This document shows, piece by piece, positions 20,931 through 25,268 of a stretch of DNA of 64,000 bases; within the stretch, counting starts at the first letter, position 1; each line of letters begins with the position of its first letter. Source of the stretch: Paecilomyces variotii (taxonomy: Eukaryota). The stretch lies in the NCBI GenBank assembly GCA_004022145.1, contig RCNU01000006.1; one strand, 5' to 3'. The translations under genes were made by a program, and so were the position numbers. The notes beneath the pieces are model-generated. The model saw only the letters and a list, made by a program, of their open reading frames with translations, was not told the origin of the DNA and did no database searches.

Positions 20931-22382
20931 CTATTGACTGATCGCGTCCCGACAGCGGTCTATACCAAGCTGGTTGACCAAGAACTCGTTGACGAACTGA
21001 CAGTTGGGGTCCTGCTGTTCCTGGAACTTCAAAAACTCGGGCAGCTTCGGGAAGGCGAACAAGGTATGTTTGGGGTCATTTGGCGACATCTTGTTCCAGT
21101 GGGCACGAGCATTGAGTTCGTAGCCGAATTTATCCATGAACTCAAGAGCGAATCCCTGGTTGTTCCACAGCGTAGTGAAGTTGTTGACGGACTGAATCCA
21201 GTCAATCTCCAGAACACCAAATACGCCGCTGTTTTGAGGGCCCAAGTTGTATGTGTTAACGGGAGACATGTATGCGTCGTCGCCCTTCAAGATACGATAC
21301 TGGAAAATCATCTCCTGGTTGTCAAAGCCCTTCATCCTCGGAGTCTGGGATTGCTGGAACTTGGTATAGTTGACTGCGACGTCCATGAAGTTCTCAAATG
21401 GCCAGAAATGCTCGATCTCAGCGTAGAATTCACGGCTGCACACACCCTGTGGAGGAGCAGAGGTGGCGTCACTGACCTCATCGTAGCAGATGTAATCTTT
21501 GATACATTCACCACAGCCGTTGGCACAGTAGTTCAGCGTACAGTTGCGGACTCCAGTGTAATTTGTTGGCTCCCACCAGCTGGCAAAGAAAGTAGGTTCG
21601 ATGACCCAGTCTTGAGCTTCACTATCCCAGTCGAAGTGGGGACCCCAGACAGTCATACGGTCGTGCTTCTTGTACAGGTCGGCGATTTCGGTATACAACT
21701 GGGTGTAGTTGGTCGTGGCGTTCAGCACAGTGGTCGTTTTCTTTAGGAGATATGTCGGTTGGACCTTGAATGTCAACTCGGTAATCAGACCGAGAGCACC
21801 AATGGAGACCCGGAATGCTTTCAGCTCCTCAGGGTTGTTCCATTCATTGATCACTTTGATATTACCCCTCGCATCGACGATGCGGAGACCGACCACCTGG
21901 CTAGCCATGTTGTCGACATACCGTCCGGTACCGTGAGTGCCAGTGCTGACAGCCCCAACGAAGTTCTGGACCCGTTCAGCACCGAGGTGGTTGAAGGACA
22001 AGCCATGCTCCTTGAGCACGTTGATAATATCGTAGACGTCCCAACCGGCACCGATAGTGACTGTCATATTCTTCTTGTTGATCTCAAGAGACTTCAAGTT
22101 CGCAAGGTTCACAATGTACGAAGTCTTGTTCGTGAGAGATTGGTCAACGCATGTAGTAAGGTTGCCAAATCCATGACCGTTTCCAACAACTTTGATATGA
22201 GATTGTTTAGGGAACTCATTCTTCAGGAATTCCACAACACCAGCCTCATCCGCGGGAGTGATGAGCTTTTCAGCTTCACAAGTCACTTCATATTGCCAGT
22301 TGTACCAACGGTATGCCGAACCGAATACTGCGTGCAGCAATACCAGTAGGAGGGGCAACCGCATACCGACGAGGGAAACCAT
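20931..22382 (-). CDS. Secreted FAD-linked aldonolactone oxidase (VAO/GULO/ALO family), probable D-gluconolactone oxidase (erythorbate-forming), 483 aa, intronless
   Basis: Signal peptide MVSLVGMRLPLLLVLLHAVFGSA, then YRWYNWQ. FAD-attachment His motif KVVGNGHGF, GAVSTGTHG, SIGALGLITELT, C-terminal HWxK motif (ARAHWNK) and several N-glycosylation sequons. From memory it closely resembles the secreted Penicillium gluconolactone oxidase (not checked by search). Confidence 0.85.
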   Translation of the reverse strand: MVSLVGMRLPLLLVLLHAVFGSAYRWYNWQYEVTCEAEKLITPADEAGVVEFLKNEFPKQSHIKVVGNGHGFGNLTTCVDQSLTNKTSYIVNLANLKSLEINKKNMTVTIGAGWDVYDIINVLKEHGLSFNHLGAERVQNFVGAVSTGTHGTGRYVDNMASQVVGLRIVDARGNIKVINEWNNPEELKAFRVSIGALGLITELTFKVQPTYLLKKTTTVLNATTNYTQLYTEIADLYKKHDRMTVWGPHFDWDSEAQDWVIEPTFFASWWEPTNYTGVRNCTLNYCANGCGECIKDYICYDEVSDATSAPPQGVCSREFYAEIEHFWPFENFMDVAVNYTKFQQSQTPRMKGFDNQEMIFQYRILKGDDAYMSPVNTYNLGPQNSGVFGVLEIDWIQSVNNFTTLWNNQGFALEFMDKFGYELNARAHWNKMSPNDPKHTLFAFPKLPEFLKFQEQQDPNCQFVNEFLVNQLGIDRCRDAISQ

Positions 22383-23450
22383 TTTCTCGATGACGTCTGT
22401 AAGACATTTCAGTTAGCTGGATCTTAAAATATCTTGACTAGGATCTGTTAACCTTTGCCCCGGGACTTTATCTGATTAGGTGCTTCGACCTCGGGATGGT
22501 AAGATGCCTAGAGAGATCTTATCAAAGAGAGAAGGACGCAATATATAAACATTGTACTCAATGGTTTCCGGATGCCGTCCGATAACATTTCGTCTGAGCA
22601 CACAGAAGGTATCTGCAGGAAATATCCCACCACCCCCCACTGAGAGACTATTTTCACGTTGTCCACGGGAAAGAAATGGCTCGTGGCTGCGTCTTTCGGA
22701 CCCATTCCTGCCGGTCTCGGCTCACCGAGTGGGATGTGTCTTCGTTTATTGCTCCAAAAGAAGTGCGTACCGGGCCGATCAGGAAGTCAATGGAGGAACC
22801 CGACTTGGTACTGGGTTCGGAGGCTACGTTGTTGAGTTGGCCTGTGTACACGATCTGATAAGATCTACACAGGCCGTTGATCGACACGGCACGACTAAGT
22901 ATGGAGTACAAGCTTTTCCGGCGGCCTCCACTCGCAATGCAGTGGCCCGAGATTAGATTGACACGGAAGATCAAAAGAAAAAGAAAAAAGTCTAACTGAA
23001 CCCGTATCTTTAAATGGGATCAGCGCGATTTATACCAGTAAACGTATGGGTGTTAGCTTAAATCGGTGGCTTTATGTTTCCTTTTGTCACTGGTTCCGCT
23101 TGTGGAGTTTGTGCCTTTTCTATCGATTTCACATGGAGTCGGTAACGGCGGTAATGTAAGTATATTGCGATCTCCAAGTTAACTTAGTGGGGAAAGGTAT
23201 GAAAATATACGAACAAGAAACTCCCAACGGTGCCCGGATTCTTCCGGTGAGTGCCGTTTTTGAGAGATAGGTGCATAAGATACAAACTACTTATGATGCC
23301 TAGTCAAACTACTCTAACCCTCGACAGGACACCAAGTACGGAGAAAACCTCCAGCTATCAGTATTTATGATTGTTCGACCGGAGGAAAGTTGCCTAATCT
23401 GAATAGCCAGGGAAAAGAAAGACAAAAAAAGCCAAACACAGAACAAGACC

Positions 23451-25268
23451 TTAATGGGAGTTATAATCCGCCAGAATATGATCGCTGATCTTCAAAGCCA
23501 TAGCGTAGAAGACAGTCATGACATGGGAGGATACCTGGGTTGGAGGAATGGAACCATCAATTACACGAAGACCCTGGACACCATAAACACGAGCGGCAGA
23601 ATCGACCACGCCACCAAGTTCTTGCGCCATCATCGAACATGTACCCACGGCGTGCCAGTTCGCGCGGAAATTTTGTTTGACGTATTCCGCCCACTGATTT
23701 AGTGTCGCGTTGTATGCCAAAGCATATCCAGGGACAGTCTCCCCTGCAAAATATGTCTGCATCTCTCCACTGCTGGAAACCTCGCGCGCAAGTTTGGACG
23801 CGGCGGCTTGGCCCAGTACATCAAGCTCGTTGAGGAGGTACTTTGGATCGTTCGAGAACTGGCGGAGGTAAGGATCGTTGGAGAGAATGTGTATGCTTCC
23901 GCGAGTGAAGGGAATAAGATCCCACACGCTGAAGCTTATTTTGCCCTCCGTGTCAAGGAATAGTTCTGTATAGGCAACGTCCTCCTGGAGTAGCCATTGG
24001 CGGTAGTTCTCGTATTGAATCTTGAGGGCAGTATGGTTGTGGAACCCGCCCCGATTCACCGTCTCTTCTGCCCATTCTTCGAGCTTGGTATTGAGTAGTT
24101 CAATAGCCTGAGGGGCGTAGTCACCAAATGTCTCGTTAAAAGAGGCATAGTAGATGGCTTGACCCTGGCCGTACCCAGCTGCAGTAGCCCGAGATGTGAC
24201 CGTAGTGGTGGTTTGATCCTGCATGTTGAGTCCAACAGGAAGATCCACCACTTGCTCAACACCAGCGGCGTCGAGGACATCTTTCAGACCGATGCCGGAC
24301 TGTTCCAGAATCAAGGGAGAGACGAGAGACCCAGCTGCTAGCAGAACCTCATGTCTCGCATACACATTGAAATTGACATGCTTGTTCGTCCCGAAGTTCA
24401 CCCCGACTGCCTTTGGGCCTGATGATGTTTCATTCATCAGAACTCTTCCGACATATTGACCGGTCAGAATCTTCAGATTAGGGCGCTTATAATTGGGGAG
24501 GAGCCACTCTCGCGCAGCGTCTGACCGAGTCTGGTCCTCGTGCAGAGTGTTAGGGAGCATGGAGACTCCCCGAGGATGACCACAGTGTAAATCTTTCCGG
24601 ATGGGAACCCCTCGCTCTGTACTAGTATTCATAAGAGCCCTGATGATCGGAGAGTATTGCTCTCCATTGTCACGGACCCCGGTATGAACAGTACCATTCG
24701 TTCCATGACAAGCAGGTTCGTAGTAATGCCCAGCCGCAATCTGAGCTTCATTCGGAGGCCGCGATACTTCAGCTTTCTTGATGTACTGGAACAGATTTGC
24801 CCAATTCCAGCCCTTATTCCCGAGAACTTTCTCCCAAGAATCGATTTGAACCTTGTCCGGACTGGTCCATGAACCACCGTTGATCAAAGTCGAACCTCCA
24901 AGACCATTGCCAGCCCTGATGTTCTGAGAACGATTGTTGATTCCCAGAGGCACAGTTTCGTAAGCCTGGTCGACGCTGCTGCCAAATATGGTACCGTAGT
25001 CATTGAGGTTCTCAATAATAGCTCCTTCGTTAGACTCATAGAAGCCCTTTTCAATAACAAGAACATTGATTTCTGGGTTCTTGCTCAGTGTGGCCGCAAC
25101 AGTTAGCCCAGTCAACCCCCCTCCAGCAATAATGTAATCGAATGTTCGTCCGGCGGCCGCTTTGGGATCAGAAAGGAGGCTTGACTGAACATTGACCTGT
25201 TCAAGAGGCGAATAAGATTGGGCCGCAGCCACAGATAGCAGAAAGAAGCAATGGATTAGAGTCTTCAT
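23451..25268 (-). CDS. gox: Secreted glucose oxidase (GMC oxidoreductase, AA3_2), 605 aa, intronless
   Basis: Signal peptide, QSSLLSDP, Rossmann motif [48 protein letters not shown], catalytic His motifs [14 protein letters not shown] and [10 protein letters not shown]. Typical of Penicillium/Talaromyces/Aspergillus GOX. Confidence 0.93.

What the first reader, a model, noticed from the sequence alone, without database searches (positions are those of the whole stretch)
20931..25268. Tandem glucose oxidase + gluconolactone oxidase: candidate two-gene extracellular erythorbic acid (isoascorbate)/H2O2 pathway cluster
Seen: two co-oriented, intronless genes ~1.07 kb apart, both with signal peptides. 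One is a GMC glucose oxidase with both catalytic His motifs. The other is a VAO-fold aldonolactone oxidase with the VGNGHGF flavinylation His and an HWxK motif. Established: glucose oxidase makes D-gluconolactone + H2O2, and Penicillium species make D-erythorbic acid from glucose via glucose oxidase and a secreted D-gluconolactone oxidase, which this protein strongly resembles from memory. Inference: the product of one gene is the substrate of its neighbour, so this looks like a compact secreted pathway giving two H2O2 plus a vitamin-C stereoisomer per glucose. An ene-diol reductant together with H2O2 could drive Fe3+ reduction/Fenton chemistry, supply LPMOs, or serve antagonism or self-protection. 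No lactonase is present that would divert lactone to gluconate. I do not know of this physical linkage being described as a cluster, but could not check the literature.
Basis: partly seen in the sequence, partly recalled or inferred. Interest (0 to 1): 0.88.

Follow-up and report, generated by a model that had tools for sequence, protein, structure and literature searches.

The report
Linked glucose oxidase–gluconolactone oxidase gene pair
A mould genome carries a secreted glucose oxidase gene next to a secreted sugar-lactone oxidase gene, and related moulds keep the same two genes together, which fits the known two-enzyme route from glucose to erythorbic acid and hydrogen peroxide, although the product itself was not tested.

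Summary
Two intron-free coding regions lie on the minus strand, 1,068 bp apart. One is a 605-aa GMC glucose oxidase (23451-25268). The other is a 483-aa VAO-family aldonolactone oxidase (20931-22382). Both have N-terminal signal peptides. Both proteins are 99% identical to Paecilomyces variotii proteins.

The adjacency is not unique to this genome. Two Penicillium-like contigs carry the same pair head-to-head. Consecutive accession numbers or locus tags link the two genes in six further Aspergillus and Penicillium species. One 2024 paper mentions a 7.7-kb segment with both genes in Aspergillus section Flavi. All linked lactone oxidases tested fall in one well-supported clade.

The best reading is a conserved secreted two-gene module: glucose to gluconolactone to D-erythorbate, giving two H2O2. 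Three things remain unshown:
- substrate and product;
- co-expression;

The enzymes and the pathway are already known. What is new is how widely the linkage is conserved. Interest is moderate.

The parts
23451..25268 (-). Glucose oxidase coding region, 605 aa, no intron (the stop codon is 23451-23453)
   Evidence: ORF. GMC_oxred_N and GMC_oxred_C domains. 994.5 bits to 1GPE and 927.8 bits to A. niger 1CF3. 99% identical to a Paecilomyces variotii 'CAZyme family AA3' protein, P0230.
25218..25268 (-). Predicted GOX signal peptide (residues 1-17, [17 protein letters not shown]; cleavage site approximate to one residue)
   Evidence: Residue 1 of the 1GPE chain aligns with residue 19 of the full-length protein. 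The hydrophobic N-terminus is visible. This is an inference; no predictor was run.
20931..22382 (-). Gluconolactone-oxidase-like VAO-family flavoprotein coding region, 483 aa, no intron (the stop codon is 20931-20933)
   Evidence: ORF. FAD_binding_4. The best NCBIfam hit is TIGR01678 sugar 1,4-lactone oxidase, below its cut-off. The AlphaFold model has pLDDT 92.2. Its best fold matches are L-galactono-1,4-lactone dehydrogenase and alditol oxidase. The tree places it in the GOX-linked clade.
22314..22382 (-). Predicted GLO signal peptide (residues 1-23, cleavage after GSA)
   Evidence: Sequence. The ...GSAYRW motif is conserved in most clade-A rows of alignment A1. This is an inference; no predictor was run.
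22383..23450 (.). 1,068-bp spacer between the GOX stop codon and the GLO start codon; it holds the GLO promoter and 5' leader
   Evidence: Coordinates. No Rfam family matches anywhere in the window. ORFs of 131 and 121 aa inside the spacer were not searched.
22397..22452 (-). 56-nt intron in the 5' leader of the GLO gene (GT..AG, with a CTAAC branch site), ending 14 nt upstream of the ATG
   Evidence: In run X1 one contig joins 22396 to 22453 (depth 4.1, 105 letters on the shorter side). The minus-strand sequence read shows GT at 22452-22451, GCTAAC at about 22417-22412 and AG at 22398-22397.
29601..62000 (.). Context: a 32.4-kb AT-rich block bordering the locus 4.3 kb upstream of GOX
   Evidence: GC is 19.6%, TpA/ApT is 1.39 and (CpA+TpG)/(ApC+GpT) is 0.21, against 0.85 and 1.13 in the genic part. 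This is a RIP-type signature.

Best explanation
The two genes form a conserved, secreted two-enzyme module of Eurotiales moulds.

Step 1. The GMC flavoenzyme oxidises beta-D-glucose outside the cell to D-glucono-1,5-lactone plus H2O2.

Step 2. The neighbouring VAO-family flavoenzyme carries covalent histidyl-FAD and an oxidase-type gatekeeper Gly. It oxidises the lactone to D-erythorbic (isoascorbic) acid plus a second H2O2.

Shown here: the family and fold of both proteins, catalytic and cofactor residues, secretion features, and conservation of the gene linkage across genera with different flanks and orientations.

Inferred: the lactone substrate, the erythorbate product, joint regulation, and any ecological role.
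For: (1) GOX identity.
- It scores 994.5 bits to 1GPE.
- Positions aligned to 1GPE Y73, F418, W430, R516, N518, H520 and H563 are all conserved. Which residues matter is recalled from the GOX structure literature.

(2) GLO-like protein.
- FAD_binding_4 is present. Numbering is full-length; one search's list runs one lower.
- His70 is invariant in 17 of 17 sequences and HWxK is at least 90% conserved.
- Gly134 aligns with the Ala113 gatekeeper position of GalDH. The A113G variant 8QNC has Gly where wild-type 8QNR has Ala. Gly134 is invariant in 17 of 17.
- The Ala=dehydrogenase, Gly/Pro=oxidase rule comes from a passage of PMC11505616.
- The whole-length fold matches GalDH at TM 0.72-0.74.

(3) Extracellular features of GLO: a signal peptide, 9 N-x-S/T sequons and 10 Cys. 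All 10 Cys are invariant or at least 90% conserved.

(4) Linkage, read directly from DNA.
- The pair is adjacent in the window.
- It is also adjacent in both close-relative loci among the 80 kept from a metagenome-contig scan. These are L001 (GOX 7724..5835 minus, GLO 9974..11437 plus) and L002.
- There the genes are head-to-head. L001 shares no flanking Pfam family with the window.

(5) Linkage, from annotation.
- Accessions or locus tags are consecutive in P. alfredii, A. sclerotialis, A. tamarii, P. rubens (three assemblies), A. hancockii and A. viridinutans.
- They are two apart in A. tanneri and A. floccosus.

(6) Trees.
- All 19 linked GLOs plus the window protein fall in one clade of 30 rows (SH-aLRT 100).
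- GLO and GOX pairwise distances correlate (Mantel r 0.60; 0 of 5,000 permutations reach it; 15 pairs).

(7) Literature.
- PMC4332668 (passage) states that P. cyaneo-fulvum makes erythorbic acid extracellularly with glucose oxidase and gluconolactone oxidase.
- PMC11399119 (passage) reports both genes on one 7,671-bp segment in section Flavi.
Against:
- The characterised enzyme's sequence (AAT80870) was never obtained. Orthology rests on a proxy, P. rubens Pc16g04640, at 67% identity.
- The window protein lies in a sister sub-lineage of that proxy. The split has SH-aLRT 99 and 96.
- The substrate (cap) domain is strongly diverged. Pfam ALO scores 18.3 bits against a cut-off of 23.1, and only over residues 422-469. 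TIGR01678 scores 124.6 against a cut-off of 396.8, and only over the N-terminal half.
- The position two residues before invariant Arg363, which is Glu in GalDH, is Gln in 12 of 12 clade-A rows.
- Linkage was not found for A. wentii, A. californicus or the second section-Flavi GLO lineage (contig lengths differ). That test cannot prove absence.
- The Mantel correlation is confounded by shared species history.
- Most linkage evidence (accession order, equal contig length) is indirect and gives no orientation.
- RNA data did not show co-expression.
Confidence: 0.65

Rival explanations
1. The two genes are kept together as a co-regulated peroxide-generating pair, but the VAO enzyme acts on a different sugar, polyol or lactone rather than on the product of its neighbour. 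In this reading there is no metabolic hand-over and no erythorbate.
For: - The cap domain is diverged: the ALO domain falls below its cut-off.
- Alditol oxidases match the fold as well as GalDH does, at TM 0.70-0.84.
- The Glu of the GalDH Glu-x-Arg motif is Gln in clade A.
- A second, ~496-aa secreted fungal clade of unknown substrate exists.
Against: - The only characterised secreted fungal member of this family is a gluconolactone oxidase from the P. chrysogenum group (passages).
- The P. rubens clade-A gene sits next to a GOX.
- The linkage is kept with a GOX specifically, across changes of orientation and flanks.
Confidence: 0.2
2. The adjacency is an inherited accident with no selective or functional meaning. 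The genes simply have not been separated since a common ancestor.
For: - The species compared are related, so the repeated observations are not independent.
- Some species show no linkage by the contig-length test.
Against: - The flanking genes differ completely between the window and L001.
- Orientation differs (tandem versus head-to-head), so rearrangements have occurred around and within the pair without splitting it.
- A published case moves both genes together on a 7.7-kb segment.
- The biochemical link between product and substrate is already established in Penicillium.
Confidence: 0.1
3. One or both genes are silent relics at the edge of a RIP-mutated block.
For: The locus lies 4.3 kb from a 32-kb RIP-type block.
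Against: - Both reading frames are intact.
- RIP indices over 20931-25268 are normal: TpA/ApT is 0.71 and the second index is 1.13.
- Catalytic and cofactor residues are conserved.
- A spliced contig of the GLO 5' leader exists in run X1.
Confidence: 0.03

Closest known systems
Glucose oxidase of Penicillium amagasakiense (PDB 1GPE) and Aspergillus niger (1CF3), GMC family, CAZy AA3_2
   Same: Same length and two-domain GMC architecture. It scores 994.5 and 927.8 bits and aligns end to end. The catalytic His pair and the glucose-contact residues are conserved, and both have a signal peptide.
   Different: Nothing functional is evident. Here the gene is tandem with a lactone oxidase. Whether A. 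niger has such a partner was not tested.
[quoted passage not shown] 2004)
   Same: It is a secreted, glycosylated VAO-family lactone oxidase with covalent FAD that works downstream of glucose oxidase to give D-erythorbic acid. The pathway statement comes from a passage of PMC4332668. The His and HWxK features come from a passage of PMC11505616. Details of the 2004 paper are recalled, because that paper is not held.
   Different: No direct comparison was possible. The window protein is 67% identical to the P. rubens clade-A protein and lies in the sister sub-lineage with the Aspergillus section Flavi and Circumdati proteins.
L-galactono-1,4-lactone dehydrogenase (8QMY, 8QNB, 7SML), and the ALO and GULO enzymes
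   Same: The whole-length fold matches (TM 0.72-0.74). The FAD domain and the HWxK motif are shared.
   Different: - The window protein has a covalent-FAD His where plant GalDH has Leu (passage).
- It has Gly rather than Ala at the gatekeeper position.
- It is secreted rather than mitochondrial or membrane-bound.
- It has a Cys-rich insert (about residues 280-315), and pLDDT dips to 71-75 around residues 281-320.
- It has Gln rather than Glu two residues before Arg363.
- Overall identity is only 15-18%.
7,671-bp 'gluconolactone oxidase + glucose oxidase precursor' segment of Aspergillus parasiticus, A. flavus and A. minisclerotigenes (PMC11399119)
   Same: The same two gene types are adjacent. 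The section-Flavi proteins named 'gluconolactone oxidase' (P0412) belong to the same sub-lineage as the window protein, at 74% identity.
   Different: The paper reports it only as an inserted or relocated sequence near a chromosome end. The passage read does not discuss a pathway.

Membership tests
Glucose oxidase (GMC oxidoreductase, EC 1.1.3.4) | GMC N-terminal FAD domain plus GMC C-terminal substrate domain | tested here: met
   PF00732 scores 156.8 bits and PF05199 95.9 bits, both above their cut-offs.
Glucose oxidase (GMC oxidoreductase, EC 1.1.3.4) | Closer to solved glucose oxidases than to other GMC enzymes | tested here: met
   It scores 994.5 bits (1GPE) and 925-933 bits (A. niger GOX entries). 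The next class, glucose dehydrogenase-type entries 7VKD and 4YNT, scores 344 bits.
Glucose oxidase (GMC oxidoreductase, EC 1.1.3.4) | Catalytic His pair and glucose-binding residues (1GPE Y73, F418, W430, R516, N518, H520, H563; the list is recalled) | tested here: met
   All seven aligned positions are identical in the alignment.
Glucose oxidase (GMC oxidoreductase, EC 1.1.3.4) | Oxidises beta-D-glucose with O2 | not testable with these tools
   This needs an enzyme assay.
Aldonolactone oxidoreductases of the VAO flavoprotein family (ALO, GULO, GalDH, GLO) | PCMH-type FAD_binding_4 domain | tested here: met
   PF01565 scores 58.5 bits against a cut-off of 26.4.
Aldonolactone oxidoreductases of the VAO flavoprotein family (ALO, GULO, GalDH, GLO) | C-terminal ALO domain (PF04030) above the curated cut-off | tested here: not met
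   It scores 18.3 bits against a cut-off of 23.1, over residues 422-469 only. The P. rubens protein also falls just below, at 22.7 bits. The whole-length fold still matches GalDH.
Aldonolactone oxidoreductases of the VAO flavoprotein family (ALO, GULO, GalDH, GLO) | NCBIfam TIGR01678 (sugar 1,4-lactone oxidase) above the curated cut-off | tested here: not met
   It is the best NCBIfam hit, but at 124.6 bits against a cut-off of 396.8, and only residues 24-244 match.
Aldonolactone oxidoreductases of the VAO flavoprotein family (ALO, GULO, GalDH, GLO) | His for covalent 8-alpha-histidyl-FAD, and the C-terminal HWxK motif | tested here: met
   His70 is invariant in 17 of 17 sequences. H428, W429 and K431 are at least 90% conserved. 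The role of these residues comes from a passage of PMC11505616.
Aldonolactone oxidoreductases of the VAO flavoprotein family (ALO, GULO, GalDH, GLO) | Oxidase-type gatekeeper residue (Gly or Pro, not Ala) | tested here: met
   Gly134 aligns with the residue that differs between the GalDH A113G variant and wild type. It is invariant in 17 of 17. The rule comes from a passage, which also names exceptions.
D-gluconolactone oxidase (Penicillium GLO, AAT80870) | High identity to, or orthology with, the characterised protein | not testable with these tools
   No tool returned the sequence. The 2004 paper is not held, and searches for its accession numbers found only listings. As a proxy, the protein is 67% identical to P. 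rubens Pc16g04640, in the same 30-row clade but the sister sub-lineage.
D-gluconolactone oxidase (Penicillium GLO, AAT80870) | Secreted and glycosylated, not membrane-anchored | tested here: inconclusive
   A signal-like N-terminus, 9 sequons and 10 conserved Cys are present. No predictor or experiment was available.
D-gluconolactone oxidase (Penicillium GLO, AAT80870) | Converts D-glucono-delta-lactone to D-erythorbic acid | not testable with these tools
   This needs an enzyme assay or LC-MS.

The most novel reading that the evidence does not exclude
The GOX-GLO pair is an ancient two-gene extracellular redox cassette that selection keeps together across Eurotiales. It survives inversions and relocations, and it can move as a unit into subtelomeric or RIP-bordered regions. 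If so, in many moulds known as 'glucose oxidase' producers the natural end product of the linked GOX paralogue would be erythorbate plus two H2O2, not gluconate. Unlinked paralogues (for example the GOX2 type of P. expansum) would serve acidification instead.
Probability: 0.3. Interest if true: 0.65.

Novelty: new member of a known kind. Interest (0 to 1): 0.5.

Why it matters
Erythorbic acid is an industrial antioxidant. Its fungal route has been known biochemically for decades, but why moulds make it is not known. This work shows that the two genes are physically linked in Paecilomyces, Penicillium and Aspergillus.

That gives a simple genomic marker for likely erythorbate producers. It separates GOX paralogues with a lactone-oxidase partner from those without one. 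It also makes the ecological question directly testable with single and double knockouts: peroxide yield, iron reduction, a reductant for LPMOs, or antagonism.

It is not a new kind of system. Both enzymes and the pathway are already described.

Tried and rejected
- Whole genome of the window: none is held. Paralogues, lactonases and catalases elsewhere in the genome could not be surveyed.
- Salusjarvi 2004 paper: not held by DOI or PMC id. No comparison with AAT80870 was made.
- Search for Pc16g04640, AAT80870, AY576053 and Q671X8: it found only two papers, which list the accessions. Supplements are closed and might hold secretome or expression data for these genes.
- Metagenome scan: 78 of the 80 loci kept are distant relatives (49% identity or less), most at 21-33%. 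They were not used for synteny.
- RNA evidence.
  - Contigs of three metatranscriptome runs from one study (X2-X4, 95-99% alike) cover both genes, but also the spacer and the region upstream of GOX. DNA carry-over cannot be excluded, and this is no proof of co-expression.
  - In X1 the contig over 20500-22253 has mean depth 438, while the pieces over GOX have 3-10. These are one-figure-per-contig depths and cannot rank genes. Stretches without cover are not evidence either.
- A non-canonical 46-nt skip at 23276-23323 in X3: read as a strain indel, not an intron.
- Terminal repeats that would mark the pair as a mobile unit: only three short families of 18-28 nt turned up in 19800-29800, and none flanks the pair.
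- Rfam: no family matched anywhere in the window.
- Pfam on two small ORFs upstream of GOX: no hits.
- Horizontal transfer of the pair: considered. Two sub-lineages coexisting in section Flavi fits an old duplication with losses equally well.
- A physical GOX-GLO complex: not claimed, and no complex job was run.

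
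Full report
**What is in the window**

One search finds two long open reading frames on the minus strand. One runs 23451..25268 (605 aa) and the other 20931..22382 (483 aa). A 1,068-bp spacer separates them (22383..23450), and the 605-aa gene lies upstream.

Composition across both genes is ordinary, at 47-52% GC. RIP indices over 20931-25268 are normal.

Downstream of the 483-aa gene, and convergent with it, lies a Sec1-family gene (18553..20007 on the plus strand; PF00995, 8.4e-97). Upstream of the 605-aa gene come 4.3 kb without any stop-to-stop frame of 120 aa or more. After that comes a 32.4-kb block of 19.6% GC with a strong RIP-type dinucleotide signature (29601-62000).

**The 605-aa protein is a glucose oxidase**

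- It has both GMC domains.
- It scores 994.5 bits against the solved Penicillium amagasakiense enzyme 1GPE and 925-933 bits against Aspergillus niger GOX entries. The next class of GMC enzymes scores 344 bits.
- The alignment to 1GPE is continuous over residues 18-602 of the query with one single-residue gap. The coding region therefore has no intron.
- Positions aligned to 1GPE Y73, F418, W430, R516, N518, H520 and H563 are all identical. The functional role of that list is recalled, not taken from a call.
- Residue 1 of the 1GPE chain aligns with residue 19 of the full protein, which leaves a hydrophobic leader of 17-18 residues.
- The nearest database protein is a Paecilomyces variotii 'CAZyme family AA3' protein, at 99% identity.

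**The 483-aa protein is a secreted VAO-family aldonolactone oxidase**

Residue numbers below count the start Met as residue 1. The list runs one lower, because that query lacked Met1.

Domain and cofactor features:
- Pfam finds FAD_binding_4.
- His70 in VGNGHGF is invariant in 17 of 17 relatives. H428-W429-x-K431 is at least 90% conserved.
- Gly134 aligns with the single residue that differs between the GalDH A113G variant and the wild type. It is invariant in 17 of 17.
- A review passage (PMC11505616) gives the gatekeeper rule. Ala marks dehydrogenases and Gly or Pro marks oxidases, with exceptions.

Fold:
- An AlphaFold model built on a 77-row alignment is confident, with pLDDT 92.2 and pTM 0.90.
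- Its best PDB matches are L-galactono-1,4-lactone dehydrogenase (TM 0.72-0.74) and alditol oxidases (TM 0.70-0.84). DprE1 follows.

Divergence of the substrate domain:
- Pfam ALO reaches only 18.3 bits against a cut-off of 23.1, over the last 48 residues.
- TIGR01678 'sugar 1,4-lactone oxidase' is the best NCBIfam hit, but at 124.6 bits against a cut-off of 396.8, and it matches only the N-terminal half.
- Two residues before the invariant Arg363, GalDH has Glu. All 12 clade-A rows of alignment A1 have Gln there.
- I recall this Glu-x-Arg pair as substrate-binding in plant GalDH. That is a lead, not a test.

Extracellular features: a signal-like N-terminus ending ...GSA|YRW, nine N-x-S/T sequons and ten Cys. 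All ten Cys are invariant or at least 90% conserved.

**Is the adjacency more than chance?**

Direct DNA evidence:
- The metagenome-contig scan kept 80 loci. Only two of them are close relatives of the lactone oxidase (65-67% identity).
- Both carry a GOX homologue next door (68% and 72% identity).
- In L001, GOX lies at 7724..5835 (minus) and GLO at 9974..11437 (plus). In L002, GOX lies at 1355..3 (minus) and GLO at 2837..3577 (plus).
- In both loci the genes are head-to-head, not tandem as in the window.
- The L001 GLO is identical to a protein that NCBI names from Penicillium decumbens. The L002 GLO is 93-96% identical to P. chrysogenum-group proteins.
- The flanks of L001 hold a methyltransferase, a Band 7 protein, a spermidine synthase, an OPT transporter and a kinase. 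They share no family with the window's flanks.

Indirect evidence from annotation:
- GLO and GOX carry consecutive accessions or locus tags in six species:
  - P. alfredii (NUU61_006935 and 006936);
  - A. sclerotialis (RJE18645 and RJE18646, on a 15.7-kb contig);
  - A. tamarii (KAE8167149 and KAE8167150);
  - P. rubens in three assemblies (for example KAF3014365 and KAF3014364);
  - A. hancockii (BBP40_000046 and 000047);
  - A. viridinutans (Aspvir_009324 and 009325).
- The numbers are two apart in A. tanneri and A. floccosus.
- The two genes sit on contigs of identical length in:
  - A. caelatus, A. bertholletiae, A. transmontanensis and A. cavernicola;
  - P. nalgiovense, P. crustosum, P. 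viridicatum and P. decumbens;
  - one unnamed JGI record;
  - two P. variotii assemblies.
- This test found no linkage for A. wentii, A. californicus or the second section-Flavi lineage (P0012, P0023, P0024). It cannot prove absence, because only the longest contig of each cluster member is reported.
- Clade-B proteins were not checked for neighbours.

**Trees**

- In a 48-row tree rooted on three actinobacterial sequences, a clade of 30 rows (SH-aLRT 100) holds the window protein and all 19 GOX-linked proteins.
- That clade splits into two sub-lineages. One holds Paecilomyces plus Aspergillus section Flavi and Circumdati proteins (10 rows, support 99). The other holds the Penicillium proteins and other Aspergillus proteins (20 rows, support 96).
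- The ~496-aa 'clade B' proteins, 43-48% identical to the window protein, form a separate group.
- In a 54-row GOX tree the linked GOX genes do not form one clade. They are interleaved with GOX genes of unknown or no linkage, such as those of A. niger, Talaromyces and the GOX2 type of P. expansum.
- The local groupings mirror the GLO tree: Paecilomyces sits nearest the Flavi and Circumdati pairs, rubens with nalgiovense, crustosum with viridicatum, and sclerotialis with cavernicola.
- Pairwise distances of the two proteins over 15 pairs correlate (Mantel r 0.60; 0 of 5,000 permutations reach it). Shared species history contributes to this figure.
- Section Flavi carries both GLO sub-lineages. 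An old duplication with later losses therefore explains the pattern as well as transfer does.

**Literature**

[quoted passage not shown] It cites Salusjarvi et al. 2004, which is not held.
[quoted passage not shown] It is inserted between remnants of the CPA cluster in A. parasiticus MRI410 and sits near a chromosome-3 end in A. flavus and A. minisclerotigenes.
- Six other full-text searches found no paper that treats the two genes as a cluster or pathway unit.
- The library lacks most subscription journals, and supplements were closed.

**Transcripts**

- One contig of run X1 joins 22396 to 22453. On the minus strand the skipped 56 nt begin with GT, hold GCTAAC and end with AG, 14 nt before the start codon.
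- The GLO gene is therefore transcribed from at least 22557, and it has an intron in its 5' leader.
- Contigs from three metatranscriptome runs of one study cover both genes, but they also cover the spacer. They do not show co-expression.

**Verdict**

This is a new, tandem-oriented member of a conserved GOX-GLO gene pair of Eurotiales. It most likely encodes the known extracellular route from glucose through gluconolactone to erythorbate, with two H2O2 (confidence about 0.65).

The substrate, the product, the joint regulation and the ecological role are all inferred. Both enzymes and the pathway are already known. The added value is how widely the linkage is conserved, together with the split between GOX paralogues that have a lactone-oxidase partner and those that do not.

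Noticed in passing
window 29601-62000: A 32.4-kb block of 19.6% GC, with TpA/ApT 1.39 and (CpA+TpG)/(ApC+GpT) 0.21. This is a RIP-type signature, probably degraded repeats or a centromere-like region. Its content was not analysed.
   Followed up: partly
window 27426-28050 (+): Two adjacent frames look like a small two-exon gene. The first contains MHKFGILAALFVGFASA..., which looks like a signal peptide. The second is a 102-aa Cys-containing frame. Neither has a Pfam hit. It may be a small secreted protein lying between GOX and the AT-rich block.
   Followed up: partly
window 20500-22253 vs 22243-22557: In run X1 a 3,956-nt contig of mean depth 438 ends at 22253, which is 129 nt inside the GLO coding region. 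By its length it must run on below 20500, across the convergent Sec1-family gene. The 5' piece of GLO has depth 4. The step is unexplained, and contig depths cannot rank genes.
   Followed up: no
GOX tree, (P0305, P0307, P0266): GOX proteins named from Beauveria, Akanthomyces (Hypocreales) and Lipomyces (a yeast) nest inside the Eurotiales GOX clades at 68-72% identity to the window protein. This may reflect horizontal transfer of GOX.
   Followed up: no
L002 3-1364 (-): The GOX reading frame of this 3.6-kb contig (coverage 3.9) holds one in-frame stop. It could be an assembly error or a pseudogene.
   Followed up: no
proteins P0409, P0403, P0301: The P. expansum protein named Glucose oxidase 1 belongs to the GOX cluster whose P. 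crustosum and P. viridicatum members share a contig with the GLO. GOX2, the paralogue tied to gluconic acid and virulence (passage of PMC8743014), sits in a different GOX clade.
   Followed up: partly
proteins P0012, P0023, P0024: Aspergillus section Flavi carries a second clade-A lactone oxidase lineage, annotated 'putative gulonolactone oxidase'. No GOX linkage was seen for it by accession order or contig length.
   Followed up: partly
window residues 358-363 of the 483-aa protein (alignment A1): Clade A has Gln two residues before the invariant Arg363, where GalDH and the bacterial relatives have Glu and clade B has Ile. This is a candidate specificity determinant.
   Followed up: partly
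window 2376-3806 (-): A C2H2 zinc-finger gene (PF00096, 3.3e-11) lies about 17 kb from the pair. There is no evidence that it regulates the pair.
   Followed up: no
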